Source: a virus. From it: DNA of 64,000 bases. This document shows positions 6,138-59,275 of the stretch, one piece after another. Positions within the stretch are counted from its first letter, which is position 1; each line of letters begins with the position of its first letter. A program made the position numbers and the translations under genes. The notes below the pieces were generated by a model. That model was given only the letters and a program-made list of their open reading frames with translations, searched no databases and was not told where the DNA came from. The DNA is taken from IMG/VR virus record IMGVR_UViG_3300022839_000006, positions 29,896 through 93,895 of that record, one strand, 5' to 3'.

Positions 6138-6152
6138 AATTAAGGAGCAGGT

Positions 6153-6518
6153 ATGAGCAGTTACAGATTTGAGAATTGGGTCATTATAAAATTTAATAGT
6201 GCGGACCCACACTACAGAGTTCTTGGCGGAAGATCAGGCAGCTACCTTGATGGTAGCAGTTGGCGCATGAACAGCGGCGTCACAAGTGTTGAAAGTAGAA
6301 TTGACCATTACGTGAGTCAAGGCAAAAGGAAAGAATTCCTTTTGTATGAATTCTATGGTGCGAGCGGATCTTGTTACACATGCAACAAAGAATCTTACGG
6401 TCTCAAAATGAACAACGCACATGTTTGGAACGAGTTGGAAGAAATCTACGGCGATAAAGTCGAACTAATGGACGAAGATACAGATTGGCTGAACATGGAT
6501 TGGCTGATCAAAGCGTAG
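6153..6518 (+). CDS. hypothetical protein
   Basis: 121-aa ORF, RBS AAGGAGCAGGTATG. Confidence 0.5.
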   Translation: MSSYRFENWVIIKFNSADPHYRVLGGRSGSYLDGSSWRMNSGVTSVESRIDHYVSQGKRKEFLLYEFYGASGSCYTCNKESYGLKMNNAHVWNELEEIYGDKVELMDEDTDWLNMDWLIKA

Positions 6519-6523
6519 TATTA

Positions 6524-6904
6524 TTATGGGTTCCAGTATCCCATTTCTCCAGTTGTCGGATTGTAAACAGTGTAGAAGAAACCTGTAGGCAATGTGCTAG
6601 TTGGTGCTGTACCTGTGGTGTTTTCTCTAACTGGTTTGACAATTAGTGTATTTGCTACTACGTTGTCCAATTGGATGTTGGTTGCATTAATAACAATACT
6701 ATTCGCTGCTTGACTGGCCAACCCAGCTCTAGCACCAATTGCTATTGCAGCCGTGCCTTGATTGTTTCTGCCCGCTTCGATGCCTATTGCTATTGCTAAC
6801 GTGCCTTGGGATTGTGTTGCTGCATAATTACCAATCGCCACTGAACTCACCAGTTGTTGTACTTGACCAGCACTGTGGCCGATAGCAATGGCGTTTTCGT
6901 TTTG
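6524..6904 (-). pseudogene. tail-fibre-like repeat protein (AIAIG / Hep_Hag-like repeats) lacking a canonical start
   Basis: Open frame runs 22 codons above the only in-frame start (GTG at 6850) and continues the AIAIG repeat. The upstream promoter/RBS cassette copy has ACG where the paralogous cassette has ATG. Confidence 0.4.
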
Positions 6905-13210: not shown

Positions 13211-14710
13211 ATGAAAAATATTCTAAGCCTGCTTACTTCCATCATGCGTACCGATGGATACAAGACTTCACAATTCTTACAATACCCAGCTGACACGCAA
13301 TACATCAGCTCATATATTGAATCGCGCGGCGGCGCTGACACCAGTGTATTCTTTGGTCTACAAGCATTCATCAAAGACTATATGCAAACCCCCATTACTC
13401 AATCCGATATCAACTTTGCAGAAGCAGTTTTTACAAAGTACGGTACTCCCTTCAACCGAGAAGGTTGGGAGATCATCGTCAACGAGTTTGATGGGTATCT
13501 GCCACTGGAGATTGAAGCGGTTCCAGAAGGTACTGTTATGACAACCAGAAACATCCAAGTTCAAGTTGTAAACACTGATCCCAGAATGGGATGGTTGACA
13601 TCATACGTTGAAACTGCTCTGCTACGTGGGGTATGGTATCCTTCAACAGTGGCAACCAAATCTCGCGAGATGAAGGTGATGATTGCACAGGCACTGTTCA
13701 AAACCAGTGACATCCCACTTGATATTCTAATGGGGCCTGTGTTGAATTTCACTCTCAATGACTTTGGTGCTCGTGGTGCGTCATCCACAGAGACTGCCGT
13801 TCTTGGTGGGATGAGTCACCTTGTAAATTTCTGGGGCAGTGACACAATTGAGGGCATGATTGGCACACATGTTTACTATTCTGCTGATATTACAGACGTG
13901 TCTACACCTGTTGTTGCAGGGTCAATCGCGGCAAGTGAGCATAGTAGTATTACCAGCTGGGGCAAGGAAAACGAAGGTAAAGCATATGCCAATATGATTG
14001 ACCAGTTCTCTGCGCCTGGTAAAATTTACGCCTGTGTCAGCGATTCATACGACATCTACAATGCAACCAAAAACATTTGGGGATATGAACTCAAGGTTCA
14101 AGTAATTGAATCGGGAGGCACTCTGGTTGTACGTCCAGACTCAGGTGATCCCGTTACTGTGCCAATCGAAATCCTTGACATTCTGGCAGAGCAGTTTGGA
14201 TACACTGTAAACAGCAAGGGATTCAAGGTTCTTGCGCAGCGTGAAGATGGGTCCGCCATTGTGAAAGTCATCCAAGGTGATGGTCTTGATGTGGTCACCA
14301 TGAAACAATTACTGGACAATGTGATTGAGGCTGGATACAGTGTGGAAAACATTGCGCTGGGCATGGGCGGCGGACTCTTGCAAAAAGTAGACCGTGACAC
14401 TCTGAAATATGCCATGAAGGCTTCTGCCAGATGCGATTCAGATGGAGTATGGCATGATGTGTTCAAAGATCCTATTGCAGATCCTGGCAAGACTTCCAAG
14501 AAAGGTCGGCTGGGACTGATCTACGAATGTGGAGTTGGTTCATGTGGTTACCGGACACTGCCCAAGGAATTTGCAGATGAAAAAGGCAATATCCTGCGTA
14601 CAGTGTACCGGAATGGCGTGCAATTAATTGACGATGATTTTGAAACTGTTCGAACACGGGCAGGTCTGAAAGAATCAGAATACAATCCACAACCAATTGA
14701 ACGATTCTAA
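13211..14710 (+). CDS. nadV: nicotinamide phosphoribosyltransferase (NAMPT/NadV)
   Basis: 499 aa; MRTDGYKTSQF N-terminus and FGARGASSTETAVLGGMSHLVNF core typical of the NAMPT family; RBS AGAGGAG. Confidence 0.85.
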   Translation: MKNILSLLTSIMRTDGYKTSQFLQYPADTQYISSYIESRGGADTSVFFGLQAFIKDYMQTPITQSDINFAEAVFTKYGTPFNREGWEIIVNEFDGYLPLEIEAVPEGTVMTTRNIQVQVVNTDPRMGWLTSYVETALLRGVWYPSTVATKSREMKVMIAQALFKTSDIPLDILMGPVLNFTLNDFGARGASSTETAVLGGMSHLVNFWGSDTIEGMIGTHVYYSADITDVSTPVVAGSIAASEHSSITSWGKENEGKAYANMIDQFSAPGKIYACVSDSYDIYNATKNIWGYELKVQVIESGGTLVVRPDSGDPVTVPIEILDILAEQFGYTVNSKGFKVLAQREDGSAIVKVIQGDGLDVVTMKQLLDNVIEAGYSVENIALGMGGGLLQKVDRDTLKYAMKASARCDSDGVWHDVFKDPIADPGKTSKKGRLGLIYECGVGSCGYRTLPKEFADEKGNILRTVYRNGVQLIDDDFETVRTRAGLKESEYNPQPIERF

Positions 14711-14826
14711 ACAAAACCTAATAGTCCAAGTGGGTGTCTACTTGGACTATTTTCGTGACAATAACAGTTGACATCATGCTTTGTAGACTGTAAAATTATA
14801 TTAACAGCAACAAAGGAATGTGTAAC

Positions 14827-15599: not shown

Positions 15600-15683
15600 G
15601 CCCAAGTACTCAAGTAGCTGATGTGGTCTTAGCGCCGAGTTGAAGCCTCGGAGATGTCTGTTCGATTCGGACCTTGGGCCCCA
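15600..15683 (+). tRNA. tRNA-like element (possible tRNA-Phe GAA) with an atypically long D-region
   Basis: 7-bp acceptor stem GCCCAAG/CTTGGGC then discriminator and CCA. T-arm is GTCTG-TTCGATT-CGGAC. Anticodon arm CCGAG-TTGAAGC-CTCGG has U33 and a purine at 37. The segment between acceptor and anticodon stem is ~9 nt longer than a canonical D-arm. Confidence 0.4.
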
Positions 15684-19562: not shown

Positions 19563-20012
19563 ATGCTACATACGATTGATTCGACAGGTTGGGACACACT
19601 CACATCTTGGTGTGTCCCAACCGCGATCAGTTTTCTTTCTGGGATTCCTCTGATCCATTCTCACTCTCGTGCCGCGTTTATTCAAGACAAGGCCTTGAAA
19701 GAGGTTAAGGGCGTGTACGCTGCAGAGGCGCTGTTGATGCTCAGAGAACAGGGATATAAAGGCGAGAGGGTCGATCTCAGCAGCCGATACAATGATGCCC
19801 CCAGGCTCAAGAAATTTCTCGAAGGTCGTACATCATGGGAGAAGGGCATGCCTCTCATGATTCAAGTTGAGGATTCCAAAGATTTCTGCCATATGATTGC
19901 AAGTCATTATGGATATGCCGCTGACAATCATACAATGAAGCCTGTTGCAATTGACAAATTCCCTCACCTTAACAAATATGTGACATCAGCTTGGGTTGTG
20001 TCAAAACTTTAA
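19563..20012 (+). CDS. hypothetical protein
   Basis: 149-aa ORF. Confidence 0.5.
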   Translation: MLHTIDSTGWDTLTSWCVPTAISFLSGIPLIHSHSRAAFIQDKALKEVKGVYAAEALLMLREQGYKGERVDLSSRYNDAPRLKKFLEGRTSWEKGMPLMIQVEDSKDFCHMIASHYGYAADNHTMKPVAIDKFPHLNKYVTSAWVVSKL

Positions 20013-25163: not shown

Positions 25164-25739
25164 ATGAGCAGGGACATTTGGTTCTTCAGCGACCACCATT
25201 TTGGACAATCGAGTATTTTGAAGTTTACCGACAAGGACGGAAATCTTGTTCGTCCTGGCTTTGCTGATGTCGCTGAGATGGACAACTACATGATTGAAAT
25301 GTGGAACGCATCGATCAAACCAGGCGATATTGTATATCATCTTGGAGACATTGCATTTGACAAGCAAAAGTTCACTGATTCAATATTGAATCAGTTACAG
25401 GGAAGGATTCGATTGGTAGTCGGCAACCATGATGATATTAAGTTGATGTCATCGTTGCCTAAAATTCAAAAGATTTTAGAGAGTCGAAGGTTTGATGATC
25501 ATATGTTCATTGCCAGTCATAGACCATTGCACCCTCACAATCTGTGGAACCATAGAAAGATGTGCCCGTTGATTAATCTGGTCGGACACATTCACAGTAA
25601 CGATCCTCCACCTGACCAATACATAAACGTCTGTGTTGAGAGGACAGGATACAAGCCAATACACATCGACGACATTGCACAACAAGCACATATAATGATT
25701 CAAAATTTAGAGGAGGCATACAATGAGCAAATTACCTAA
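25164..25739 (+). CDS. metallophosphoesterase
   Basis: FFSDHHFGQ...HLGD...GNHD...GHIH; RBS AAGGAGAGATTATG. Confidence 0.65.
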   Translation: MSRDIWFFSDHHFGQSSILKFTDKDGNLVRPGFADVAEMDNYMIEMWNASIKPGDIVYHLGDIAFDKQKFTDSILNQLQGRIRLVVGNHDDIKLMSSLPKIQKILESRRFDDHMFIASHRPLHPHNLWNHRKMCPLINLVGHIHSNDPPPDQYINVCVERTGYKPIHIDDIAQQAHIMIQNLEEAYNEQIT

Positions 25740-26874
25740 GAATCCGCTTCCGTTTTCGGTTCCTGGTTGCTACCTTGCGGGTGGGGCGATTCTTTCCACA
25801 GTAACCAAAACAGAAATATCAGATTATGATCTTTACCCAAAGTCTAAAGAGGCGATGATCACGCTGTTCTACATTTTGCAAGAATCGAACTGCTTTGTGG
25901 TCAATTATTCGGACCGAGCGGTGACATGGAAGTGCAATGACGTTGTAAAAGACAATGGCGAGCGCGGCATCATTCAGGTGATGACGTTTGACACATTTGA
26001 AAATCCCGAAAAGATTTTTGACTTTTTCGATTTCTCTGTTTGTATGGGCGCATTTGACACAGATACGCTTGAATACCATTTTCACAAAGACTTCTGGCCT
26101 TCTGTGGCAAGCAGAACACTGTACTTCAATCCTAAGACAAAATACCCATTAAATAGTCTGACACGCGTCAGTAAGTACACGTCCAAAGGATACCACTTAC
26201 CTAAGACACAGTCGATCAAAATGTCTCTTGCTGTGATCAACTCAGGGATGCCAACATCGTGGGAAGAACTTGAAGCAGCCATTGGCGGATCTTACGGCAG
26301 ACAGATCAAAATTATGGTTACGGATAAAGAATTCTCATACGAAGCTGCATTGGAAATTCTGGGCGATCTTGTTCTTGATATCGATGTAGTGACTGAATCG
26401 TACGACAAGATTAAGGCCGAACACCTTGAGGTGAGCGTCACTGGCTCGACTGTTCCAATTCTAACAATTCCATACAGTAACAACAGCATGAATTCAAGCT
26501 CCAAAACATATAAAATAGTTAATGGCGCTGCTGTTCCTATGGACGCTGCTGAAAAGACTGCTTTGACGTTGCTCGGCGTCAATATGGAGGAAATTGACCC
26601 TAACACGATGTTTAACGGATACAAGTGGATGACACATGTAGATGGCAACACGTATGAAGGACTCTTCAACTTCAAAAGGGTTCAATACACAATGAAAGAA
26701 GAAACCGGTGAGATCACAGGACTATACAACACTCCTGAAATGGCACTTCAGCCGCCAAGTTCAGCACAAACTTCACTGTGCATGTTTTCATTCGTTGCAT
26801 CAGACATAACCAGTGCAACGTCGAGAGATTTTCACGTCAAGCGTTCCACATTTCAAGAGGTGGTCAAATGTTGA
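25723..26874 (+). CDS. hypothetical protein, possible Pol-beta-superfamily nucleotidyltransferase
   Basis: N-terminal GCYLAGGAIL followed 14 aa later by DYD resembles the GG...DxD head-domain signature; the rest is unassigned. Confidence 0.4.
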   Translation: MSKLPKNPLPFSVPGCYLAGGAILSTVTKTEISDYDLYPKSKEAMITLFYILQESNCFVVNYSDRAVTWKCNDVVKDNGERGIIQVMTFDTFENPEKIFDFFDFSVCMGAFDTDTLEYHFHKDFWPSVASRTLYFNPKTKYPLNSLTRVSKYTSKGYHLPKTQSIKMSLAVINSGMPTSWEELEAAIGGSYGRQIKIMVTDKEFSYEAALEILGDLVLDIDVVTESYDKIKAEHLEVSVTGSTVPILTIPYSNNSMNSSSKTYKIVNGAAVPMDAAEKTALTLLGVNMEEIDPNTMFNGYKWMTHVDGNTYEGLFNFKRVQYTMKEETGEITGLYNTPEMALQPPSSAQTSLCMFSFVASDITSATSRDFHVKRSTFQEVVKC

Positions 26875-27491: not shown

Positions 27492-28838
27492 ATGCACGAT
27501 ATTATCAATGCTCTGTGTGAAAACAACAGTGCAAACTACAAGCTCGGCGTTCTGAAGGAACATAAGAGCAACGAACAGCTCAAGCGTGTTTTGATGATGA
27601 CATACGACAAGGTTGCATATCGTTACTACATTACGATGAACCATTGGAACAAACCTGAGACATCTCCGTTTGTTTCCAACTCAATCCCAACATTGTCTTT
27701 AGACGATGCTCTCGACTTTCTGGAGACTAAGCTGTCCACAAGAGAGGTTACAGGCAACGCTGCGATTGAACAGATGGATGTGGTTTTTAGGTCTCTCTCT
27801 GATGAAGATCGCAGTGTAATGACGAAGGTGTTGAACCGCGATCTTCGGATTAATTGTGGACGAACACAGATTAATAAGGTGTTTCCGAGCCTGATTAATA
27901 GGCCCGTTTACATGCGCTGCGGAATCTACAACAAAGACACTGCAAAGAAGATTAATGTTGTAGGGGCCATTGTTCAGCTCAAAGCGGACGGCACGTATCG
28001 CGAGTTCGTGTGTGATGCAAGTGGCACGTCATCAAGCTCGCGATCGGGTGAAGAATATGAATATCCTGTGCACTTTGATCTAATGAAGGATTATCCAAAC
28101 GGACACTATTTTGGAGAATTGACAGTGATCAACGAAGACGGCACTGTGATGAATCGCGCTGAGGGCAATGGTCTTATCAACAGCAGTGCACCTCCTCATA
28201 GTCAAATCGTGTTCGACGTTTGGGATTACGTCACTCCCGAAGAGTATGCGACAGCTACGAAGAAAGAGAAGTGCAAGACACCATACGCCACACGATTGGC
28301 AGAGTTGCGCAAAATTCTTATTGACAATACATCTCCACAAATCAGACTGATCGAAACGCATGTTGTAAACACCATGAGCGAAGCTCTTGGACACTGTATG
28401 AAATGGATGAACGATGGACTTGAGGGTGCAATTCTAAAGGACTCGAACTCTGTGTTCCGTGACGGCACCAACCCACAACAATTGAAGTTGAAGCTGGTCA
28501 TTGATCTTGATTTGAGGATTGTAGGATTCCAAGAAGGCACTGTTGGAACGTCACGCGAAAAAACATTCGGTGCAATTGTGTTTGAGTCTGACGATGGCAA
28601 GATTAAAGGTCGAACATCAGGGTTCACAGATGCACTATTGAAAGATTTCAATTCCCGTCGTGCAGAAATGATCGGCAAGATTATTACAGTCCAATGCAAT
28701 GATATTACAAAGGGACGAGACAACGATTTTTACGCTCTCTCCCACCCACGGTTTATTGAGGTTCGTGATGATAGAACAGATACAGACACGCTCCAACGTG
28801 CTCTCGAGACCAAGAGAATGGCAATGGATCTGTCTTGA
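27492..28838 (+). CDS. ATP-dependent polynucleotide ligase (likely DNA ligase)
   Basis: Motif I KADGTYR, motif IV/V region EGAILKD...KLKLV, C-terminal OB-like region; 448 aa. Confidence 0.6.
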   Translation: MHDIINALCENNSANYKLGVLKEHKSNEQLKRVLMMTYDKVAYRYYITMNHWNKPETSPFVSNSIPTLSLDDALDFLETKLSTREVTGNAAIEQMDVVFRSLSDEDRSVMTKVLNRDLRINCGRTQINKVFPSLINRPVYMRCGIYNKDTAKKINVVGAIVQLKADGTYREFVCDASGTSSSSRSGEEYEYPVHFDLMKDYPNGHYFGELTVINEDGTVMNRAEGNGLINSSAPPHSQIVFDVWDYVTPEEYATATKKEKCKTPYATRLAELRKILIDNTSPQIRLIETHVVNTMSEALGHCMKWMNDGLEGAILKDSNSVFRDGTNPQQLKLKLVIDLDLRIVGFQEGTVGTSREKTFGAIVFESDDGKIKGRTSGFTDALLKDFNSRRAEMIGKIITVQCNDITKGRDNDFYALSHPRFIEVRDDRTDTDTLQRALETKRMAMDLS

Positions 28839-29691: not shown

Positions 29692-30156
29692 ATGAGACAA
29701 CTATTTTTAGACTGCGATGGCGTTCTTGCTGATTTTGACAAGCAGTTTGTATTGCTTGCAGGGACAACAGGTCAAACATACGAAGACGAACACGGTTCTG
29801 GAACTTTTTGGAATCTGATACAAAATTCCAAAAAGTTCTTTGAGGACATGCCTCTTATGTCCGACGCTCTTGAGCTGTATGCTGCTGTAAAACATCATCG
29901 CCCTATCATACTCACAGGATGTCCACGCGGGACCTGGTCTGTTCAGCAGAAGCTGATCTGGCGTGACAAACACTTCAAGGGCGTTCCAATGGTCACGTGC
30001 TTGTCTAGGGATAAGGTAGATTACTGTCAGCCAGGAGACGTCCTCGTCGATGATTTCTTGAAGCACAGCCAGAAGTGGATTGATGGCGGAGGAGTGTTTG
30101 TTCACCACACCAATACACCTTCGACATTGCAACAATTGAGCCAAATTGACCTTTGA
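29692..30156 (+). CDS. HAD-superfamily 5'(3')-nucleotidase-like phosphatase
   Basis: LFLDCDGVLADF motif I and downstream HAD motifs. Confidence 0.6.
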   Translation: MRQLFLDCDGVLADFDKQFVLLAGTTGQTYEDEHGSGTFWNLIQNSKKFFEDMPLMSDALELYAAVKHHRPIILTGCPRGTWSVQQKLIWRDKHFKGVPMVTCLSRDKVDYCQPGDVLVDDFLKHSQKWIDGGGVFVHHTNTPSTLQQLSQIDL

Positions 30157-30975: not shown

Positions 30976-31455
30976 ATGAACAAATTGACATGGGCACGTG
31001 ATGAATTGCGACGTGCGGGATATAGCACAGACGATCCTGAAGACGGTCCAGACAAGTGGATCGCCGAGAATGTAATTCAACTGCTCCAAGTATTTTCGGA
31101 ACAGGGACACAGTGGCTCTTCAGCACCGTTTGCAATTAGAATTTTTGAGCAGCTTGCATCATGGAAACCGCTTACACCGCTTACAGGCAATGATGAAGAG
31201 TGGCAACATTTCGACAATGAAAGTATCAGCCAAAATATTCGCGATTCGTCAGTGTTCAAAAACATTGACGGTGTTGCATATTGGACTGAAGGTAAAGTGT
31301 TCTGGGAATGGTTTTCTTATGAAGGTGGTGAGCCCTACAAATCGTATTTTACAAATTCGGAGAGTAGTGTGGACGTTGCATTTCCGTGGTCGAGACCTGA
31401 CTCCCCCCAGTACGTTTTCAAACCAAATAGCACTTACCCAAACGAAGAGCGCTAA
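30976..31455 (+). CDS. hypothetical protein started by the second R2 cassette
   Basis: 159-aa ORF; identical 29-nt upstream/RBS/ATGAAC. Confidence 0.5.
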   Translation: MNKLTWARDELRRAGYSTDDPEDGPDKWIAENVIQLLQVFSEQGHSGSSAPFAIRIFEQLASWKPLTPLTGNDEEWQHFDNESISQNIRDSSVFKNIDGVAYWTEGKVFWEWFSYEGGEPYKSYFTNSESSVDVAFPWSRPDSPQYVFKPNSTYPNEER

Positions 31456-31592
31456 TTAGAAAGAACAAAAGAAAATGGTGATACTTGCCTTACTTGGCGC
31501 TATTATGGTTGGTTGTATTGTTGGATATGGAGTAATGACTCTTTCCTACAATCTCATGCTAAAGAACAAAAATGGAAAAGGAACAAAAAACG

Positions 31593-32441
31593 ATGATAAT
31601 TAAAATTGTCAGTGCAGTGTTTGCAGGGATTCTAGCTCTTACAGTCGTAGGTGGAAGTTGGTACACGGTCGATCAAGGTGAACTAGGTGTCCAGCTCCGC
31701 AACGGTGCTTTGGTTGGTGTGGCTGAGCCAGGGCTTGGTTTCAAAGTGCCCGTGATCGACAAAGTTGTTGACATTGACCTTCGCAGCCAAGTCAAAATCT
31801 ACGAAAATGTTTTGACGTATAGCCGCGATCAGCAGACAGCAAGTCTTACTGTTAGCGTAAACTTTCGAGTGCCACCTGGCGAGGTCGTTAGCGTCTATCA
31901 AGATTATGGAAGTGTGGAACGTCTTGCTGATAGACTACTCGATCGTCAAGTCATGGACGAAACTAAGAATGTTTTTGGTCGGTTTAATGCAGTGACTGCT
32001 ATTCAAGAGCGGAGCAGACTTGTAGTGGAGATTCAACAGGCAATTCAAGAAAGTGTCGATGGCCCAATCACAATTGAGAGCGTACAAGTCGAAAACATTG
32101 ATTTTGATGATAGCTATGAAAGAGCGATTGCTGCACGGATGGAAGCAGAGGTAGAAGTTCAAAGGATTGGCCAGAATGCAGAGCGCGAAAAGGTGCAGGC
32201 GCAAATTAAAGTGATTCAAGCAGAGGCAGATGCAGCATCCCGTGTGGCACAAGCGACCGCAGAAGCACAGGCAATCACTCTTCTTGGCAATGCTGAGGCA
32301 GAGGCGATCAAAGCAAGGGGCAACGCACTTCGCGATAACCCAAATCTTGTCAGTCTTGTTCAAGCAGAGCGCTGGGACGGCAAGCTACCAACGACAATGT
32401 TGCCCGATATTACAGTACCATTCATGAACATGAGTAACTGA
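31593..32441 (+). CDS. SPFH/Band-7 (prohibitin/HflKC-like) membrane protein
   Basis: N-terminal TM, then YTVDQGELGVQLRNGA...GLGFKVP SPFH core and an Ala/Glu-rich coiled-coil tail. Confidence 0.7.
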   Translation: MIIKIVSAVFAGILALTVVGGSWYTVDQGELGVQLRNGALVGVAEPGLGFKVPVIDKVVDIDLRSQVKIYENVLTYSRDQQTASLTVSVNFRVPPGEVVSVYQDYGSVERLADRLLDRQVMDETKNVFGRFNAVTAIQERSRLVVEIQQAIQESVDGPITIESVQVENIDFDDSYERAIAARMEAEVEVQRIGQNAEREKVQAQIKVIQAEADAASRVAQATAEAQAITLLGNAEAEAIKARGNALRDNPNLVSLVQAERWDGKLPTTMLPDITVPFMNMSN

Positions 32442-32787
32442 TCTTGAACCTTGGCATTGCAATGATTGTCGCGTATATTCCACTCTTCTATTGGATGATA
32501 CACGAGGCTGTTAGGCAGAAAAAAGATTTGAAAAAGATTCGACGACAACCTCGTGTTGAGGTGATCACCTCGACATATTATTCCTGACGGAGATGCTAAT
32601 TTGTGCTGTACAAACAACACAAAGAATATTACGATGCAATCTGATCGGCACGTTCTCTTATCTGGAAGATTTCACAACTGAAACATCTTGTGAAATCTTC
32701 CAGACTGGCATCGACGATGTCGTTGTATTTGATTCTGTTGGACAGACTGCTTTTCGAACAAAAAAGACCACACAATAGAGGTGCAAA

Positions 32788-33396
32788 ATGAACTACAAAT
32801 TTCCTGAAATTAAAACGCTATCTGATGTTCTCCCTCACGTTGAGGGGAGGTCAGAGTTTGTTGTGGCTGAACGTGTGTTTGGCACTGTAGTCAATTATAT
32901 GGTTGCAAAGAAAGACACGTTCGATATGAGTGGTCCTGATGATGTGGGTGGTGCGATTCGTCGTGAATGTCGTGGCATCAAATTTGACTTGGATGGAAAC
33001 ATCATAGCAAGACCCTTCCATAAGTTTTTCAACGTCGGCGAAAGAGAGGAGACACATCCTAACGTGCTGGACTTTTCCGTTGACCACACTGTCTATACAA
33101 AGGAAGACGGTAGCATGGCACATCCCATCATGTTCAACGGCACTGTACGGTGGTGCACCAAGATGGGACTGACAGACGTGTCTGCTTATATGGACACGTT
33201 CTGCGCGAAGAACCCCAAATACAATCAGTTTGCACGTGATTGCATTGCAGATGGCTACACGCCACTTTTTGAGTATGTGGGACCATTTAACAAAGTGGTA
33301 ATTGAGCACAAAGAAGAGAATATGGTGTTGCTTGCTGTACGAAATACCATTACAGGCGAATTTGTCAACATAAACAAGGAGAATGCTAAATGGTGA
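32788..33396 (+). CDS. RNA ligase 1 (Rnl1-type) N-terminal half, carrying adenylation motif I
   Basis: Motif I TKEDGSM (compare T4 RnlA KEDGSL); ORF stops well before motifs IV/V. Confidence 0.6.
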   Translation: MNYKFPEIKTLSDVLPHVEGRSEFVVAERVFGTVVNYMVAKKDTFDMSGPDDVGGAIRRECRGIKFDLDGNIIARPFHKFFNVGEREETHPNVLDFSVDHTVYTKEDGSMAHPIMFNGTVRWCTKMGLTDVSAYMDTFCAKNPKYNQFARDCIADGYTPLFEYVGPFNKVVIEHKEENMVLLAVRNTITGEFVNINKENAKW

Positions 33397-33699
33397 ATGT
33401 TGGAGCACAAGGTGAACTGCGGGGATTACACTCTATGGATATATTCGTCTCAAACATTCCTTGCACAACTTCCCGAGAGTGTGTACCAGCACCTACCAAT
33501 TCGCACATAAACCATAGAAGTTGATATACAGTGCGACGAGTCGTTAAAGAAAATCGTGTGAAGACTTATTTTGAACAAATTGCCAACAATCGTAAAAGAG
33601 CGTGTTCTTTGGTCTCGCAACTGTGGACAACACGTCCACAATCAGTTATCGTTACCCATCGGACAATAGGTTTATAGACAAATCCTACTCAACGTTCAA

Positions 33700-33742
33700 C
33701 ATCAGATATCAGTCGTCAACTCAACTCAACTGATATCTGATG
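33700..33742 (+). other. 13-bp perfect stem hairpin (CATCAGATATCAG...CTGATATCTGATG, 17-nt loop with TCAAC x3)
   Basis: Hand verified; lies in the 380-bp insert between the two Rnl1 halves. Confidence 0.7.
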
Positions 33743-33776
33743 TAAGTTAATAGAATTATACATTTAAGAGGGACTC

Positions 33777-34334
33777 ATGGACATCATAGAAAAAATCAAA
33801 ACGTACGACATTCCTGTTGTAGTGTCACATGGTAGGTATACTTCTGCAGAAGCATTGCTCGAATTTACTCGTCCTCTTGAGGGCATCGAGGGGTTTGTCG
33901 TTGACTTTGACGGCCACAAGGTGAAGGTCAAGGCTGATCAGTATGTCACGCTTCATAGGGTGAAGGACCAGATTCGAACCGAACGTCACATTCTTGAGAT
34001 CATCATTAATGGAAAACTCGACGATGTTCTCCCTATCCTAGACGCAACAGATCGAGTAACCGTTGAAGAATACCAACAGCGTTTTAACGTGGGGTTCGAC
34101 GCAGTTGTGAGTCGAATTGAAGGGCTAGTGTTGCTTGCGCGTGCCCTCCACAGTGGCGACAAGAAGGAAGTTGCCATAAAATTTGTGCCAAATCTCCTAC
34201 ACAAAGAAGATTCAAGTTTCATATTTCGTGTACTTGATGGTAAAGAATTGCGCCCACATATCATCGAGTACGTTCGCAAAAGCGTAGGTAATACTACACG
34301 CTACGACGCTCTTCTCAAATGGCTACAAATGTAG
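33777..34334 (+). CDS. RNA ligase 1 C-terminal half, carrying motifs IV/V
   Basis: EGFVVDFDGHKVKVK ~40 aa from its N-terminus lines up with T4 RnlA motifs IV-V if the two halves are joined; own RBS AAGAGGGACTCATG. Confidence 0.6.
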   Translation: MDIIEKIKTYDIPVVVSHGRYTSAEALLEFTRPLEGIEGFVVDFDGHKVKVKADQYVTLHRVKDQIRTERHILEIIINGKLDDVLPILDATDRVTVEEYQQRFNVGFDAVVSRIEGLVLLARALHSGDKKEVAIKFVPNLLHKEDSSFIFRVLDGKELRPHIIEYVRKSVGNTTRYDALLKWLQM

Positions 34335-34406: not shown

Positions 34407-35351
34407 ATGACTTTCGTTAAATTTACATCTATTGACAAGTTCGCTGATGCGTGGAAAATGATGCAACGACAAGAAATTGGCCAGATCCAATACCGCTCCA
34501 AAATAAAGCTGCACGGTACAAACGCCGGAGTTCGCATTGAAGGTGGTCAGCCTTTTTATCAAAAGCGTACTACAGACGTTACACCACTTGCAGACAATGC
34601 AGGGTTCGCATCGTTCGCATGTACTGTAGACTGGAAGATTGACGAAGATATTATCATCTACGGCGAGTGGGCCGGAAAAGGCGTTCAAAAATCTGATGCT
34701 GTTTCTTCGATTCCTACAAAGATGTTGTTTGTTTTCGCAGTGAAAAAAGATGAATACATGATCACTGAACCAGCCGCAATTCGTGAGTATGTACCATACC
34801 ACCCACAGATTGTGATTCTACCATGGTTCGACGAACCAACAACACTAGACATCAACGACGTCAGCAGTGCAAAAGCACTTTCAGAACGTCTCAACGTAGA
34901 CGTGGAACAGATTGGATCAGAAGACCCATTCATCAAAGAGCGTTTTGGTATCTCAGGTGTTGGTGAAGGTCTTGTCGTCTCGCCATGTTCAGAAACTGGT
35001 TCGGTCCCACTTTGGCTTTACAACACATATACATTCAAGGTCAAATCTGATGCTCACCTTGTACAGAAAACTAAAGGAATCAACTCTTCAATCTACATTG
35101 AAATTCCTGGTTCTGTCAGAGAATTCTGTGATCAATTCGTCACGGACAACCGATGTGAACAGATGGTTCAAGAACACCTTGAAGGCTCCTATACTATGAG
35201 AGGAATGGGGACATTTCTTAAAACAATCAACGCTGATATTCTGAAAGAAAGCAGAAACGAATTTGCTGAACTTGGTGTAGAATGGAAGATGGTTGCAAAG
35301 GAAATCAATAAACGTACTGCGAAATGGTTCAAATCTAAAAATACAGTTTGA
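34407..35351 (+). CDS. RNA ligase 2 (Rnl2-type)
   Basis: Motif I KLHGTNAG (T4 Rnl2 KIHGTN), YGEWAGKGVQK motif-III region; 314 aa (T4 Rnl2 is 334 aa). Confidence 0.75.
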   Translation: MTFVKFTSIDKFADAWKMMQRQEIGQIQYRSKIKLHGTNAGVRIEGGQPFYQKRTTDVTPLADNAGFASFACTVDWKIDEDIIIYGEWAGKGVQKSDAVSSIPTKMLFVFAVKKDEYMITEPAAIREYVPYHPQIVILPWFDEPTTLDINDVSSAKALSERLNVDVEQIGSEDPFIKERFGISGVGEGLVVSPCSETGSVPLWLYNTYTFKVKSDAHLVQKTKGINSSIYIEIPGSVREFCDQFVTDNRCEQMVQEHLEGSYTMRGMGTFLKTINADILKESRNEFAELGVEWKMVAKEINKRTAKWFKSKNTV

Positions 35352-35381: not shown

Positions 35382-35729
35382 GTGAACATTTTCAACTGGA
35401 TCAAATCACTCTTCCAAAACCCTGTAGTGGCTCAACCAATTGATGGGCATGTGGTCTTTGATGGAAGACGTATTGCATGTCTTCCATCAAAGACAGCAGC
35501 GGAAGAATTCATTCGAAATCAATTCCAAGAGGTCGATGTCAAAACGGCCCGTATAAATCTAACTGCCAGAGGCAAATGTCGATCCACTCAGGATGGAAGA
35601 TGGAAGGCGTTTAGAAGCAATCTGAAATTGTCAAACAGGAGACGTCAAGATGAAAAAAGAGTTCAAACCAGTAGTGGGTGGACGAGCCAGCATCTGCACA
35701 TGGGAAATAGAATTTTATTTCCTAGATAA
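35382..35729 (+). CDS. hypothetical protein (GTG start); 3' end overlaps the next ORF and the real gene may be shorter
   Basis: ORF track only. Confidence 0.3.
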   Translation: MNIFNWIKSLFQNPVVAQPIDGHVVFDGRRIACLPSKTAAEEFIRNQFQEVDVKTARINLTARGKCRSTQDGRWKAFRSNLKLSNRRRQDEKRVQTSSGWTSQHLHMGNRILFPR

Positions 35730-51671: not shown

Positions 51672-51798
51672 CCACACAATACATGCACGCTGAGAAAGGA
51701 ATGCTTGTATGTCCTTTCTCAGCGTGTGTTGACCTTATAGTCAATGGGCATATAGTGCAAGAAGTACAAAAATAACACAAGATCAGTCGAGGATAAAA

Positions 51799-53259
51799 AT
51801 GTGTACAAATAACGAGCTGGTCGCACTTGCAACAAAAATTGTCAAGTTGATAGGGAACGCTAAACAACACAAGGACAAGGTCCTACAAAATATTGATTCT
51901 GATCTACACGCACGTTTTGTAGAGTCGACAAGCTTCATGCCTGAGGATACCAAACTCTCACAGAGAGTTGCACATGGCCTGACAGGAATCGATCGTATGT
52001 TGATATGCGTTGTATGTGGTAACACACACATGAGAATATACCCTCCTTCCCAAAGAGATTATTGTTGTAAAGGGTGCTACTTTTCAGACACAAAAGCAAT
52101 GAAGCAACGCGTAAGTGTTGTAGATCAAACTGCACGTGTGAAGAAGATGGCACACACCAACAAAGTAAAGTACGGATACGAATTTAATAGTCAAAGACCC
52201 GACGTCAAAAAACTGTTGAGCAAATCTAAATTGGAACGTACCAATCCCGAGGCTGTAGACAGGCTCGCAGATAAGCTGTGGCTTGAAGAACAATACGCTA
52301 AACAAACCTCCGTTGAAATTTCAAACACTCTAAACGTGCATTACAGCACTGTTCTTTTCCACTTGAGAAAACATGGGATAGAAATAACACCATATGCAAA
52401 CACGAGTGCGGTTGAACGTAGTATAAACCAATTCATACTTGACAGTGGTGCACGAACAACAACGTCCACTCGTAACATTCTCACAGGCAACAGAGAGATC
52501 GACATCTATGTCCCTGAAAAACACCTCGCAATTGAAGTTAATGGGCTATATTGGCATAGTAGCACAGATTTCACCAATTCGGCCAAGCACTTAACCAAGA
52601 CGGAGGAGTGTTTGAGTAACGGGATTCGGCTCATACACATATCTGACGAAAAGTGGTTCACGAAGCCAGATGTTGTAAAGTCTATGCTGTTGAATAGACT
52701 CGGCATGTCTCAGACACGAATACATGCAAGACAATGTACGGTCAGGTCTGTAGATCCGTCTACATCCAACGAATTTATTAACAGAAACCACATCAATGGC
52801 ACAGCAAACGCAAACAAGAAGTATGGTCTATATCACAATGATGTGTTGGTATTGGTAATGACGTTTAGTAAATCACGGTATTCTAAGATGCACGAGTGGG
52901 AGTTAATAAGGTTGTGTTCTGCTCACAATACGGTTATTGTAGGAGGAGCATCTAAAGTATTTCAACACTTCATTAGAGAGCAGTCGCCTATCAGCATTAT
53001 GACTTATGCTGATAGGCAATATGGAGAGGGACACGCATATCCAAAACTTGGCTTTAAATTTTCTCACATTACCAAGCCAGGATATTCCTGGACAGATGGC
53101 AATAAAACTTACAATAGAATCAACTTTCAAAAACACAAACTCCACAAACTACTAGATGTCTATAGTGACAGCCTGACAGAAAGAGAAAACATGATTAACA
53201 ACGGATATCGTTTATATTTCGATTGCGGTCACAATGTTTATGAGTGGAGCCAACAATAA
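51799..53259 (+). CDS. hypothetical protein with Zn-ribbon, HTH and a possible endonuclease-like region
   Basis: CVVCGNTH...CCKGC Cys cluster; HTH-like ISNTLNVHYSTVLFHLRKHGI; IDIYVPEKHLAIEVNGLYWH resembles restriction-endonuclease-like/DUF559 cores. Confidence 0.45.
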   Translation: MCTNNELVALATKIVKLIGNAKQHKDKVLQNIDSDLHARFVESTSFMPEDTKLSQRVAHGLTGIDRMLICVVCGNTHMRIYPPSQRDYCCKGCYFSDTKAMKQRVSVVDQTARVKKMAHTNKVKYGYEFNSQRPDVKKLLSKSKLERTNPEAVDRLADKLWLEEQYAKQTSVEISNTLNVHYSTVLFHLRKHGIEITPYANTSAVERSINQFILDSGARTTTSTRNILTGNREIDIYVPEKHLAIEVNGLYWHSSTDFTNSAKHLTKTEECLSNGIRLIHISDEKWFTKPDVVKSMLLNRLGMSQTRIHARQCTVRSVDPSTSNEFINRNHINGTANANKKYGLYHNDVLVLVMTFSKSRYSKMHEWELIRLCSAHNTVIVGGASKVFQHFIREQSPISIMTYADRQYGEGHAYPKLGFKFSHITKPGYSWTDGNKTYNRINFQKHKLHKLLDVYSDSLTERENMINNGYRLYFDCGHNVYEWSQQ

Positions 53260-53320: not shown

Positions 53321-54622
53321 TTAGAACAGGTTGTTAACAACCACTTTGCGGTAGTACTCGTTCGTTGCAGACTGCAGACGACCAAGTCCTTGAGCGCTAC
53401 CTTCTGCAAAAGGATTCGCGACCATGCCGTAGCGTGTCTTGAAGCCGATTTTTGGTTGGAAGCTATTCTCACCGATTGCACGCACCATCTGAAGCGGAAC
53501 ATATGGGCAGTAGAAGATTCCCGCATCAAATGAAGAGGAGCCTTTGTAGCCGACTACAAGGTAGTTGTTGCCTGCATATGGATCGATGTATACGCGGTAA
53601 CGACCATTAAGAACACCTGCGAAAGTATTGCCTGTGTCATCAACTTGTAGGTTGTTGCTGTTAAGTGCTGGTGTATAATCAAGTACGCCTGCCATCTGAA
53701 GTGCGGAAGCAACATCAGAAGAACAAATTACCAGATTGCCTTTGCCGCGACGAGTAGCTTTTGCAATTGCGTTTGCTTCCGTCTCGATTTGGAACATCAG
53801 ACCCTTGAACTTCTCAACAGACCAGCGACCGTTTGCATCGACATCAAGGTCGAACACACCTGGCGTTGCTGTTCTTTGAGCTCCGACGACTGCGTTAGTA
53901 AAGATTGTACGTACAACTTCACGGTTGATTTCAACAAGAATCTCGCTCGAAAGAATGTTTGCGAGTTCTGTTTCTGCGTCAAGACCGTGAACAGCACGAA
54001 GATCCTGTGCAAGTTCAGTGGTGTATTCCGCTTTCAGTGCGCGTGTTTTTGCTTCAACAGCAACTTTTTCAATTGAGAAAGCCATTTCTGCGAAGGGTGT
54101 TGCACCACCTGCAGCACCAAGTGCTTCTGCAGCTGCTGTGTTCATGCCCGTACCGAAGTCTGCGTTACCTGGAAGGCCTGCTGTGTTGGCTGTACCAGTA
54201 CCACCAAAGGCGGTGTTGGCTTCGTTGTAGAATGCTTCGTCGCCTGCTTGTGATGCATACTTGGAGCGCATTGCAAAGATCAGGCCAGTTGGACCTGTCA
54301 TTGGCTGTACGCCACAAATGTCGTATGCAATCAAATTTGGCATTGCACGACGAACCAGGCTGATAAGTACTGGGTCATAACCAGCGACTGGACCTGCAGC
54401 AGCTGCTCCGGCAGAGAAGCCACCAGTCCCAGCATCGTTGGCTGGCGATTCATTGAGCAATGAAGTCATTGTAACGCCCGTACGATCTTCTGCAAGTGCC
54501 TTCTCAGTGTTCTCAAGAATTGTTGCAGTCACGCCACGACGGTACTTGTCTTTGATTGATTCGAACTGATCGTGGTCCAGAATCGGTGCCCACTTTTCTG
54601 TTAGAAGATTATGTTGACTCAT
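53321..54622 (-). CDS. g23: major capsid protein (T4 gp23-like)
   Basis: IAYDICGVQPMTGPTGLIFAM core, 433 aa, sits at the end of the g20-g21-g22-g23 block. Confidence 0.85.
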   Translation of the reverse strand: MSQHNLLTEKWAPILDHDQFESIKDKYRRGVTATILENTEKALAEDRTGVTMTSLLNESPANDAGTGGFSAGAAAAGPVAGYDPVLISLVRRAMPNLIAYDICGVQPMTGPTGLIFAMRSKYASQAGDEAFYNEANTAFGGTGTANTAGLPGNADFGTGMNTAAAEALGAAGGATPFAEMAFSIEKVAVEAKTRALKAEYTTELAQDLRAVHGLDAETELANILSSEILVEINREVVRTIFTNAVVGAQRTATPGVFDLDVDANGRWSVEKFKGLMFQIETEANAIAKATRRGKGNLVICSSDVASALQMAGVLDYTPALNSNNLQVDDTGNTFAGVLNGRYRVYIDPYAGNNYLVVGYKGSSSFDAGIFYCPYVPLQMVRAIGENSFQPKIGFKTRYGMVANPFAEGSAQGLGRLQSATNEYYRKVVVNNLF

Positions 54623-57572: not shown

Positions 57573-59275
57573 CGTGCTTTTCTCCGCTTTTCTTTATAAT
57601 GTTGAAATGTGTTTTTATTATTTATCTGAAGCGATTCTTCTGATGGAGGAGTATCTTGTTCTCCATCACTGTCGTCCGTTTCGGAGTCTGCATCATCATC
57701 CACTTCATCGTCCACTTCATCATTATCCACTTCATCGTCGCTACCACGATCGTCCATATCATCAGGATCGCGATAGAGACCTGCTGCGCGCTCAGCAGCA
57801 ATTTGAGCTTGCATCTCCATCGTTTCGGTTTCTGACATGAATAGAACATTTTTCTGAACCCATTGACGAGAGAAGTACTTGCCAACTTGCTCTTCCATTT
57901 CTCTTATCGTACCGATCTTTTCTTTTAGAATCTCCATCTCCTTGAGCTCTTCAAAGTAGCTATCTTTCATGAAGTCGTAACGAACTTCGTCTTTAATGTC
58001 CTTCCATTCGTCGGGCGTTAATACACCTTTCAATATGAGCTGTTTTTCAAGTATAATATCGAATAAGATGGAGAAGCGGGTACGAAGACGTCGAACGAAC
58101 TTTCCGAAGCGCATTTCGTCGCGTGTCATTTCCGACACTCGACCAAACGAATAACTATTTTCAGATTCCAATCTGGATACAGGAACACCAAGCGATTTGT
58201 AGAGTTTTTTCTGAAAGTATGCTAAGTTGTCGTTATCGCCGAGTGACGCACCACCAGGAAGCGAGTCTACTTCAGTGCTACGATTTCCTTCTCTTCTTGG
58301 AAACCAAAAGTCTTCTGTCATAGTCATAAACTTACGACTGTCGCTCATTTCGCCAGTACTTGAATTGTACTGAAGTTTATTCTTGTGTCTTGCCATCATA
58401 TCAGCTAGGTATTGCTCTGCCTTTGCTTTTGGCAAGTTGCCCACATCGACGTAGAATATTCTACGCTCTGGTGCGCGAGTCAACGTGTAGATTACAGTAG
58501 CATCTTCTAGTACTCTTAGCTGATTGAGTGGCTTAATTGCACGGTGTAGGTGTGATAAAACAAGTGACTGATTTTCATTCATCAGACCTGATGTAACACG
58601 TGCAATTGAGTCTTTTGCAATTTTATATCCGTTTGTCACTTGACTGCTTGCAGAACCGCCCGAGGACGAAACGCCAAAGCCGCCATCTGAATACATAAAA
58701 TATTCTGACTTAATTCTTTTCAGTGGGAGACCGGTCTGTCTATCTGCTGTACTGGAATCGTTTTCACGAATTAGTCGTACTTTACGAGGATCGAGATATC
58801 TAAGCTCCTGAATTCCCTTTCTGAGATTGCTCTCATCAATTATAATATGATAATTAATTCTACCATCCACAAAAAATCTTTGAAAAATGTCGTAACCTTG
58901 GTTCGAAAAGTCGAGTAGGTGAAGAACATTTTCAAACTCTTCTAAAATTGCGCTCTTTACCTTATCAGGCAGTTCAACACCATCTAGTACAATTGTAACT
59001 ACTTTTTGATTTGCCGAAACAGAGATTGATTCGTTTACAACCTCGTCTACGGCTTGTTGAACTTCAGGCTGTAATGCCATGGATCTATACCTAGTCACAA
59101 GTTCCGATTCGTTTTTGGCTGTTCCTTCAATGTCAAGGAAATATCCATACGACCCGCCGGTAGCAGTTGCTTCTACGTTAACCGCGCCGTCATCGTTTTG
59201 CGGAGCTGCAAACGATGACGGCTGGTATTCGTCTTTATTATTGCGCTTAATTTCAAAGCCAAATAATTTTGCCAT
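57569..59275 (-). CDS. g20: portal vertex protein (gp20-like)
   Basis: 568 aa, position and length; acidic C-terminal tail. Confidence 0.8.

What the first reader, a model, noticed from the sequence alone, without database searches (positions are those of the whole stretch)
32788..34334. Rnl1-type RNA ligase split into two ORFs by a 380-bp insertion
ORF 32788-33396 carries nucleotidyltransferase motif I (TKEDGSM, cf. T4 RnlA KEDGSL) and stops after 202 aa. ORF 33777-34334 (185 aa) begins ~40 aa before motifs IV/V (EGFVVDFDGHKVKVK). Joined, they reproduce the length and motif spacing of T4 RnlA (374 aa). The 380-bp insert contains stops in all frames and a GC-richer patch (CUGCGGGGAUUACAC...UUCCCGAGAG). 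It also holds a 13-bp perfect hairpin just before the second ORF's RBS. It could be a small self-splicing intron (common in T4-like phages), the scar of an excised homing element, or a genuinely fractured two-polypeptide gene.
Basis: partly seen in the sequence, partly recalled or inferred. Interest (0 to 1): 0.7.

Follow-up and report, generated by a model that had tools for sequence, protein, structure and literature searches.

The report
Two-piece phage RNA ligase gene
A T4-like phage carries its RNA ligase 1 gene as two separately translated halves, an arrangement shared by dozens of uncultured relatives, and the 380 bases between the halves are the eroded remains of inserted genes, not an intron.

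Summary
ORF 32788-33396 (202 aa) and ORF 33777-34334 (185 aa) are the N- and C-terminal halves of an Rnl1-type RNA ligase, separated by 380 bp.

The intron reading is not supported:
- No Rfam family matches.
- Without its hairpin, the spacer folds no better than shuffled sequence.
- The spacer is made of colinear deletion remnants of a gene cassette (orf121, DUF6745, terminator, orf67). That cassette is still intact directly after the N-half in the closest relative.

The split is older than the spacer and widespread:
- At least 60 protein clusters are stand-alone C-halves that all start at the same residue.
- In several lineages the halves abut (gap -4 to +1 nt), with a Shine-Dalgarno inside the last N-half codons.
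- Other lineages hold a promoter, a small ORF, or a reverse-strand homing endonuclease at the same junction.

Both halves look functional. They keep all catalytic motifs, evolve at dN/dS of about 0.1-0.18, and model as one confident Rnl1 fold with the break at a surface loop.

Best reading: a functional genes-in-pieces Rnl1 whose junction is an insertion hot spot. It is a new member of a known kind, comparable to Aeh1 nrdA/mobE and phage 44RR/25 gene 43. Enzyme activity is inferred, not shown.

The parts
32788..33396 (+). Rnl1 N-half (202 aa). Carries the R54-, K75/F77-like residues, motif I (Lys105 in TKEDGSM) and motif III (FEY, E162). Preceded by SD AGAGGTG.
33376..33396 (+). Last six codons plus stop of the N-half (KENAKW*). 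This tail is encoded by what is the ribosome-binding site and start codon of orf121 in relatives, so it derives from inserted DNA.
   Evidence: window 33372-33421 is 92% identical to L006 3655-3704 and 90% identical to L070 4983-5032
33372..33421 (+). Remnant 1: RBS and first ~11 codons of orf121 (MVNVGAQGELR).
33419..33463 (+). Remnant 2: internal fragment of the DUF6745 gene (aa 232-246, AGITLYGYIRLKHSL).
   Evidence: 82% DNA identity to L070 6131-6175; tblastn 87% over 15 aa
33451..33537 (+). Remnant 3: 3' end of the DUF6745 gene (..FLAQLPESVYQHLPIRT*), its stop codon, and the 5' arm of its terminator hairpin. The 3' arm and T-run are deleted.
   Evidence: 87% identity to L070 6365-6451
33536..33581 (+). 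Remnant 4: start of a small downstream ORF (orf67 of L070). Here ATG is changed to GTG, the SD is lost, and similarity ends after KTYFEQI.
   Evidence: 85% identity to L070 6493-6538
33582..33698 (+). Spacer segment with no detectable homologue, ORF, promoter or terminator.
33699..33743 (+). Perfect 15-bp hairpin with a TCAAC-repeat loop and no T-run. It belongs to a class of perfect intergenic hairpins found throughout the window. The loop is 5 nt shorter in strain L004, with the stem intact.
33766..33772 (+). Shine-Dalgarno AAGAGGG, 4 nt upstream of the C-half ATG.
   Evidence: conserved in L003-L005
33777..34334 (+). Rnl1 C-half (185 aa). Carries motif IV (EG, residues 38-39), motif V (HKVKVK, residues 47-52) and the all-helical C-terminal domain.

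Best explanation
This is a genes-in-pieces RNA ligase 1.

The split. In this clade of T4-like phages the rnlA-type gene is divided, inside a variable surface linker of the nucleotidyltransferase domain (between motifs IIIa and IV), into two cistrons.
- The N-half carries the adenylylated lysine and motifs I and III.
- The C-half carries motifs IV and V and the C-terminal helical domain.
- In the simplest relatives the two cistrons abut and are translationally coupled: a GGAG sits inside the last N-half codons, followed by TGA-A-ATG.

The junction as a landing site. It behaves as an intergenic landing site. Different lineages hold a sigma70-like promoter, a 77-aa ORF, reverse-strand HNH-type homing endonuclease genes, or a promoter-led cassette (orf121-DUF6745-terminator-orf67).

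The window's spacer. The window's lineage once held that cassette, as its 91%-identical relative L006 still does. At least four deletions then reduced it to a 380-bp untranslated spacer.
- One deletion fused the N-half reading frame to the former orf121 ribosome-binding site, creating the tail KENAKW*.
- Another removed the 3' arm and T-run of the cassette's terminator.

Expression and function (inferred, not shown).
- Both halves are co-transcribed through the spacer, which contains no terminator-like site.
- The C-half is translated from its own Shine-Dalgarno (AAGAGGG-N4-ATG).
- The two polypeptides reassemble by fragment complementation into one Rnl1 fold with a composite active site.
For: Shown:
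- Colinearity with intact Rnl1, with only +1 to +2 residues at the junction.
- At least 60 clusters (90% identity) of 184-189-aa stand-alone C-halves, 46-70% identical to the window's, all starting at the same alignment column.
- Junction census: gap -4 to +1 nt in L010, L011, L019, L037, L039; 51 bp in L044; 293 bp in L009, L012, L013; 375-380 bp in the window and L003-L005; 1.0-1.15 kb with reverse-strand homing endonucleases (phrog_655 / phrog_12434) in L008, L034, L038 and L033.
- dN/dS of 0.10-0.18 for both halves between split lineages, and 0.107 for window versus L006 N-halves.
- Motifs I, III and IV are intact in every split locus. Motif V is intact in all but L019, whose motif V did not match the search pattern.
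- Window versus strain L004: 1 change in 1181 coding nt against 6 in 540 non-coding nt (p = 0.005).
- The AlphaFold model of the concatenate has pLDDT 94.3 and pTM 0.83. The break lies at the N-cap of helix 200-211, after loop 187-199. The best structural match is T4 Rnl1 2c5u, E 1.5e-18.
- Four colinear remnants of the L070/L006 cassette lie in 33372-33581.
- No terminator-like site and no TTGACA-type promoter occur in the spacer.

Precedents: Aeh1 nrdA/mobE (PMC3045599) and gene 43 with an IC-UTS or a seg endonuclease (PMC2988022).
Against: - No transcript, protein or activity data exist. Heterodimer assembly and ligase activity are inferred only from conservation and a single-chain model.
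- The C-half of the L006 lineage was not seen, because the contig ends. The pre-deletion state (N-half, cassette, C-half) is therefore reconstructed, not observed in one contig.
- 195 bp of the spacer (33582-33776), including the hairpin, has no identified origin or function.
- dN/dS specific to the window's own C-half branch could not be measured, because the nearest other C-half is 70% identical and dS is saturated.
Confidence: 0.8

Rival explanations
1. The 380 bp is a small self-splicing (group I-like) intron. Splicing would restore one continuous Rnl1 mRNA.
For: - The size is compatible with an ORF-less group I intron.
- Introns are known in T4-like phages.
- The exons are colinear with intact homologues, with nothing missing.
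Against: - No Rfam family matches at E<=10 in a 2.1-kb or a 491-nt scan.
- Folding z = -1.9 is due solely to the hairpin; without the hairpin z = +0.45.
- 210 bp of the spacer are remnants of protein-coding genes.
- The C-half has its own SD and ATG at a start position conserved in at least 60 clusters.
- Relatives have 0-1 nt between the halves.
Confidence: 0.02
2. In this particular phage the split Rnl1 is decaying. One or both halves are no longer functional, because the 380-bp spacer uncoupled their expression.
For: - Translational coupling seen in relatives is lost here.
- The N-half has acquired a foreign 6-residue tail.
- No promoter is recognisable in the spacer.
- The gene is dispensable in T4 in most hosts (own knowledge).
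Against: - Both ORFs are intact with all catalytic residues.
- A good SD precedes the C-half.
- The N-half has dN/dS 0.107 against L006.
- Strain comparison shows coding regions more conserved than the spacer.
- The single C-half substitution (D11N) is to the residue found in homologues.
- The cassette's terminator has been deleted, which fits selection for read-through.
Confidence: 0.12
3. The spacer is itself functional. For example, the hairpin could be an RNA-processing or stability element, or a small ORF or sRNA could be expressed, rather than the spacer being neutral debris.
For: - The perfect 15-bp hairpin stem is retained in strain L004 despite a loop indel.
- Similar perfect hairpins recur at many intergenic sites of the window.
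Against: - No conserved ORF; the 44-, 37- and 48-aa ORFs are frame fragments of decayed genes.
- No Rfam hit.
- The two other point differences from L004 within the body of the spacer lie upstream of the hairpin.
- Only two strains are available, so conservation is not informative.
Confidence: 0.25

Closest known systems
Aeromonas phage Aeh1 nrdA-a / mobE / nrdA-b 'genes-in-pieces' ribonucleotide reductase (Friedrich et al. 2007; Crona et al. 2010, PMC3045599)
   Same: - An enzyme gene of a T4-like phage is split into two separately translated polypeptides at a site occupied by a free-standing HNH homing endonuclease, as in relatives L034 and L038 here.
- The active site must be rebuilt from two chains.
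- Terminal tails are encoded by DNA that came with the insertion; here that is the KENAKW tail.
   Different: - A different enzyme (ATP-dependent RNA ligase).
- In the window itself the intervening DNA is not an endonuclease but decayed cargo genes.
- The split is shared by dozens of diverged lineages, many with no insert at all.
- Function of the split enzyme is untested here.
Split DNA polymerase gene 43 (43A/43B) of Aeromonas phages 44RR and 25: intercistronic untranslated sequence (IC-UTS) versus seg endonuclease at the same site (Petrov et al., as reviewed in PMC2988022)
   Same: - It has the same pair of states: an untranslated intercistronic spacer in one phage and a homing endonuclease gene in a relative, at the same split point.
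- It raises the same open question of whether the endonuclease caused the split or invaded a pre-existing one.
   Different: - Here the origin of the untranslated spacer can be traced to specific decayed genes.
- Insert-free, translationally coupled forms also exist.
T4 RNA ligase 1 (gp63, RnlA; PDB 2c5u, 5tt6, 9do4)
   Same: - Same fold (Foldseek E 1.5e-18).
- Same motif order and the same catalytic residues; equivalence to T4 K99, E159, E227/G228 and K240/K242 is by alignment plus own knowledge of the T4 numbering.
   Different: - T4 Rnl1 is a single 374-aa chain.
- Sequence identity is only about 20-25%.
Fractured genes with split inteins and an intervening homing endonuclease (Dassa et al. 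2009, PMC2677866)
   Same: Two gene halves are separated by an endonuclease gene in environmental phage-like DNA.
   Different: There are no intein halves: 202 + 185 aa equals the intact length (385 aa), leaving no room for the roughly 100 + 35 aa of a split intein.
Phage group I introns (T4 td, nrdB, nrdD)
   Same: They interrupt a T4-like phage metabolic gene, with colinear exons.
   Different: No intron structure was found. The second half has its own translation start. The spacer is derived from coding sequence.

Membership tests
Rnl1-type ATP-dependent RNA ligase (Pfam PF09511 + PF20819) | Nucleotidyltransferase motifs I, III, IV and V in order, with the catalytic Lys in KxDG | tested here: met
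   Motif I TKEDGSM (K105) and motif III FEY (E162) are in the N-half. Motif IV EG (residues 38-39) and motif V HKVKVK are in the C-half. All align to the T4 motifs.
Rnl1-type ATP-dependent RNA ligase (Pfam PF09511 + PF20819) | Rnl1 fold, including the all-helical C-terminal domain | tested here: met
   AlphaFold model of the concatenate: pLDDT 94.3. The top PDB matches are the three T4 Rnl1 entries.
Rnl1-type ATP-dependent RNA ligase (Pfam PF09511 + PF20819) | Single polypeptide that self-adenylylates and seals 2',3'-OH / 5'-PO4 RNA ends | not testable with these tools
   The gene encodes two polypeptides, and activity needs biochemistry.
Genes-in-pieces created or occupied by mobile elements (Aeh1 nrdA, gene 43 of phages 25 and 44RR, T4 39/60) | Halves are colinear with an uninterrupted homologue, and each has its own translation start and stop | tested here: met
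Genes-in-pieces created or occupied by mobile elements (Aeh1 nrdA, gene 43 of phages 25 and 44RR, T4 39/60) | A mobile element (homing endonuclease) at the split site in this or related genomes | tested here: met
   Reverse-strand homing endonuclease ORFs lie between the halves in L008, L034 and L038, and upstream of the C-half in L033. There is none in the window itself.
Genes-in-pieces created or occupied by mobile elements (Aeh1 nrdA, gene 43 of phages 25 and 44RR, T4 39/60) | Both halves retained under selection | tested here: met
   dN/dS 0.10-0.18 in both halves; invariant catalytic residues.
Genes-in-pieces created or occupied by mobile elements (Aeh1 nrdA, gene 43 of phages 25 and 44RR, T4 39/60) | Halves reassemble into an active enzyme | not testable with these tools
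   Only inferred, from a single-chain model and from conservation.
Group I self-splicing intron | Conserved catalytic core (P3-P9 with the G-binding P7), detectable by covariance models | tested here: not met
   No Rfam intron hit at E<=10. No excess folding energy outside the hairpin.
Group I self-splicing intron | Downstream exon lacks an independent translation start, and exons are joined at RNA level | tested here: not met
   An SD and ATG lie exactly at the conserved C-half start. Splicing itself is not testable here.
Split-intein fractured gene | Intein N- and C-fragments at the broken ends | tested here: not met
   There is no extra sequence: 387 aa against 385 aa intact.

The most novel reading that the evidence does not exclude
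A naturally heterodimeric covalent nucleotidyltransferase. The adenylylated lysine (N-half) and motifs IV/V (C-half) would sit on different polypeptides and form the active site only on assembly. This arrangement has been kept for a long time in a whole clade of uncultured T4-like phages.

The junction would serve as a recurrent landing pad for homing endonucleases and promoter-led gene cassettes, and the split and intact states have interconverted more than once. The split could also allow separate use of the halves. For example, the two activities known for T4 gp63 (RNA ligation and tail-fibre attachment) might be divided between them; that last step is pure speculation.
Probability: 0.55. 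Interest if true: 0.6.

Novelty: new member of a known kind. Interest (0 to 1): 0.45.

Why it matters
- It adds RNA ligase 1 to the short list of phage enzymes known to persist as genes in pieces (ribonucleotide reductase, DNA polymerase, topoisomerase). I found no description of a split Rnl1 in the searchable literature. No cultured phage in the GenBank-derived collection has one.
- The comparative series is unusually complete: abutting cistrons, a promoter, a small ORF, homing endonucleases, an intact cassette, and an eroded cassette. It shows how a split junction becomes an insertion hot spot and how inserted DNA is later trimmed back while the host gene is preserved.
- For enzymology, it offers a natural two-chain ligase cut between motifs IIIa and IV. 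This could guide engineered split ligases.
- For annotation, the stand-alone C-half is usually labelled hypothetical.

Tried and rejected
- **Rfam scans.** Scans of 2.1 kb and of 491 nt at E<=10 returned only spurious miRNA-type hits on the hairpin.
- **RNA folding.** No structure beyond the hairpin.
- **DNA search of GenBank phages.** blastn with the locus gave no match.
- **Pfam and PHROGs on the small spacer ORFs.** The 44-, 48- and 63-aa ORFs returned nothing.
- **blastn/tblastx against the first set of relatives' inserts and the rest of the window.** Only the 50-nt patch shared with L006 was found. The origin became clear only after fetching the orf121 family contexts.
- **Exact-pattern scan of IMG/VR with the shared 22-mer.** It found only the L006 contig, so the L006-lineage C-half could not be recovered.
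- **Split-intein idea.** Rejected on length.
- **Stop-codon read-through or frameshifting as a general way to fuse the halves.** Rejected because the C-half lies in a different relative frame in different lineages. Only L011 has the halves in frame, separated by a single TGA.
- **Single origin of the split.** Not supported. NJ trees interleave split and intact forms: L011 groups with intact P0001/P0002 at 85% bootstrap, and all split forms alone at 0%. The trees are distance-based and weakly resolved, so the number of split or re-fusion events is left open.
- **TTGACA-N17-TAGTRT promoter in the spacer.** A search for the promoter type carried by relatives' inserts found none.
Full report
**1. 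The observation**

The window carries ORF 32788-33396 (+, 202 aa) and ORF 33777-34334 (+, 185 aa), separated by 380 bp.
- The first ORF matches Pfam RNA_lig_T4_1 over profile positions 1-158 of 227 (E 1.8e-22). The second weakly matches the T4 Rnl1 C-terminal domain.
- Joined, the 387 residues align in one piece to T4 Rnl1 (PDB 2c5u residues 52-319, E 1.7e-25).
- They also align over 99-100% of their length to more than 100 uninterrupted metagenomic homologues of 373-392 aa. The best is P0001, 59% identical and 385 aa.
- At the junction the window reads NINKENAKW* | MDIIEKIKTYDIPVV, against P0001 NIHEETQDYYILEMISRYNIPVV. Nothing is missing and only about one residue is extra.
- The hairpin is real, with 15-bp arms rather than 13 (33699-33713 / 33729-33743).
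- The same two-ORF locus occurs in three other assemblies from different sources, including a 264-kb JGI contig, so it is not an assembly error.

The window is from a T4-like myovirus. It encodes a major head protein, portal, tail sheath, Dda-like helicase and DNA ligase. No cultured phage in the GenBank-derived collection is close: there is no DNA match, and the best protein identity is about 35%, always to uninterrupted genes.

**2. The spacer is not an intron**

- Rfam covariance models give no intron or other plausible family at E<=10, either on 2.1 kb or on 491 nt alone. The only hits are miRNA-type models matching the hairpin.
- The spacer RNA folds with z = -1.9, entirely because of the hairpin. 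The 302 nt upstream of the hairpin fold no better than shuffles (z = +0.45).
- The second half has a Shine-Dalgarno (AAGAGGG, 33766-33772) 4 nt before its ATG.

**3. The split is older and far wider than this phage**

A search with the C-half alone returned at least 60 clusters (90% identity) of stand-alone proteins of 184-189 aa. They are 46-70% identical to the window's C-half, and several lie on contigs of 170-275 kb. In an alignment of 29 of them, all start at the same column (M-x-[IL]-[IL]-E...). Motif IV (EG) and motif V (H..K.K) are invariant.

I fetched 68 related loci and classified them with a profile of intact homologues.

| Junction state | Loci | Notes |
|---|---|---|
| Gap of -4, 0 or 1 nt | L010, L011, L019, L037, L039 | GGAG or GGAA inside the last N-half codons, then TGA-(A)-ATG; a translational-coupling junction |
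| 51 bp | L044 | A TTGACA-N17-TAGTAT promoter whose -35 box overlaps the N-half stop codon |
| 293 bp | L009, L012, L013 | A 77-aa ORF plus the same promoter type |
| 1.0-1.15 kb | L008, L034, L038 | A 289-333-aa ORF on the opposite strand matching PHROG homing-endonuclease families phrog_655 and phrog_12434 (E 1e-13 to 1e-31); Pfam HNH is weak in L038. L033 is similar but cut by the contig end |
| 375-380 bp | window, L003-L005 | This finding |

Most other relatives are uninterrupted. Among the best 150 representatives at 50% identity for the N-half, about eight are around 200-218 aa and most of the rest are full length.

**4. Both halves are under selection**

- NG86 dN/dS between split lineages is 0.10-0.18 for N- and C-halves alike. 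Examples: L037/L039 give 0.137 and 0.096; L034/L038 give 0.118 and 0.140. The window N-half against its 91%-identical relative L006 gives 0.107.
- Every split locus keeps KxDG (K105), motif III E162 and motif IV EG. All but L019, whose motif V did not match my search pattern, keep motif V KxK.
- Between the window and strain L004 there is 1 change in 1181 coding nt and 6 in 540 non-coding nt (p = 0.005). The single coding change (D11N in the C-half) gives the residue seen in homologues.

**5. Structure**

- An AlphaFold2 model of the concatenate, with 35 homologues as alignment, is confident (pLDDT 94.3, pTM 0.83).
- The break (residues 202/203) lies at the N-cap of helix 200-211, right after the loop 187-199. 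That block has the lowest local confidence (85).
- This region is also length-variable among intact homologues.
- The best PDB matches are the three T4 Rnl1 entries (E 1.5e-18 to 5e-17).
- The cut therefore passes through the nucleotidyltransferase domain. Motifs I and III are on one chain, and motifs IV and V plus the helical domain are on the other. A functional enzyme would need a composite active site. This is inferred, not shown.

**6. What the 380 bp are**

The closest relative, L006, has a stop codon after ...VNINN. This is followed by a TTGACA-N17-TAGTGT promoter, a strong RBS and a 121-aa ORF, then the start of a second ORF before the contig ends.

The 121-aa protein is a real, conserved family: 57 clusters at 53-98% identity. 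It normally lies upstream of a ~325-aa DUF6745 gene.

Comparison with such a module (L070) shows four colinear remnants in the window.

| Window | L070 | Identity | Content |
|---|---|---|---|
| 33372-33421 | 4983-5032 | 90% (92% to L006) | RBS and first 11 codons of orf121 |
| 33419-33463 | 6131-6175 | 82% | DUF6745 aa 232-246 |
| 33451-33537 | 6365-6451 | 87% | DUF6745 C-terminus, stop codon, 5' arm of its terminator |
| 33536-33581 | 6493-6538 | 85% | Start of a 67-aa ORF; here ATG is changed to GTG and the SD is lost |

The spacer is therefore a cassette eroded by at least four deletions, of roughly 65 bp, 1.1 kb, 190 bp and 41 bp.
- The leftmost deletion removed the original stop codon and the promoter. 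The N-half frame now runs into the former orf121 RBS and ends KENAKW*.
- The 41-bp deletion removed the 3' arm and T-run of the cassette terminator.
- This fits, but does not prove, selection for transcriptional read-through to the C-half. No terminator-like site remains in the spacer.

The last 195 bp (33582-33776), including the hairpin, have no identified origin. Perfect hairpins of 12-18 bp with loops of about 10 nt and no T-run recur at many intergenic sites of the window, so this one looks like a generic intergenic element of this phage.

**7. History of the split**

Distance trees place all split forms in one larger clade together with a few intact genes (71.5% bootstrap), but split and intact states are interleaved.
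- Split L011 groups with intact P0001 and P0002 (85%).
- The endonuclease-bearing group (L008, L034, L038) is separate (100%).
- All split forms alone never form a clade in the bootstraps (0%).

At least two changes of state (repeated splitting, lateral transfer by homing, or re-fusion) seem required. The trees are too weak to say which. Whether an endonuclease created the split or invaded an existing junction is open, exactly as for gene 43 of phages 25 and 44RR (PMC2988022).

**8. Comparison with known systems and verdict**

The closest precedents are:
- the Aeh1 nrdA gene split by mobE, whose two products reassemble with the help of tails derived from the insertion (PMC3045599);
- the split gene 43, with an intercistronic untranslated sequence in one phage and a seg endonuclease in another (PMC2988022).

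The present case has both states, plus insert-free forms and a traceable history for the untranslated spacer. It is not a split-intein 'fractured gene' (PMC2677866), because no extra residues exist.

I found no report of a split Rnl1, but the searchable library is incomplete.

Verdict:
- The intron reading is rejected.
- The 'fractured two-polypeptide gene' and 'scar' readings are supported, with a correction: the scar is of cargo genes, not of an endonuclease.
- It is a new member of a known kind. Interest is moderate, mainly for phage genome evolution and ligase enzymology.

Noticed in passing
window 3433-3479, 5358-5390, 14720-14751, 19587-19622, 29801-29838, 32661-32704, 35454-35494, 51686-51726, 59186-59222: A class of perfect 12-18-bp hairpins with loops of about 10 nt and no T-run. 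Most are intergenic, some lie directly after stop codons, and some are followed by a TTGACA-type promoter. Their sequences are unrelated to one another. They may be terminators without a U-tract or RNA processing/stability elements.
   Followed up: partly
window 51799-53259 (+), next to the major head gene 53321-54622 (-): A 486-aa homing/HNH endonuclease (phrog_3339, E 6e-105) lies adjacent to the major capsid gene. This is another free-standing endonuclease in the same genome.
   Followed up: no
window 27492-28838, 32788-34334, 34407-35351: Three ligase genes lie within 8 kb: an ATP-dependent DNA ligase (phrog_114), the split Rnl1, and an Rnl2-like RNA ligase (phrog_548; Pfam PF09414 just below its cut-off) immediately downstream.
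   Followed up: partly
window 25723-26874 and about 30976-31455; 31572-32441: The genes upstream of the ligase carry precomputed Pfam hits to the anti-defence families Gad2 (383 aa) and Tad3 (159 aa). An SPFH/Band 7 protein follows.
   Followed up: no
window 33714-33728 versus L004: The hairpin loop is made of TCAAC repeats: three copies in the window, L003 and L005, and two in the 264-kb JGI strain L004. This is a small repeat-number polymorphism.
   Followed up: yes
L006 3575-4198 and L070 4902-5525: The promoter-orf121-DUF6745 module is 90% identical at DNA level in two different contexts: after the Rnl1 N-half in L006, and after a 742-aa RNR-like gene in L070. It behaves as a mobile, promoter-led cassette.
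   Followed up: partly
L011 3990-4010: In this relative the two halves are in the same reading frame, separated only by a TGA. Stop-codon read-through or TGA recoding would give a full-length protein there. Other lineages have the halves in different frames.
   Followed up: partly
L044 2730-2790; L009 3940-4000: The N-half stop codon TGA of L044 is part of the -35 box (TTGACA) of a sigma70-like promoter that drives the C-half. The same promoter type precedes the C-half in L009.
   Followed up: partly
window 15608-15683; 13211-14710: A tRNA-Phe (GAA) gene and a nicotinamide phosphoribosyltransferase gene (phrog_448, E 1e-141).
   Followed up: no
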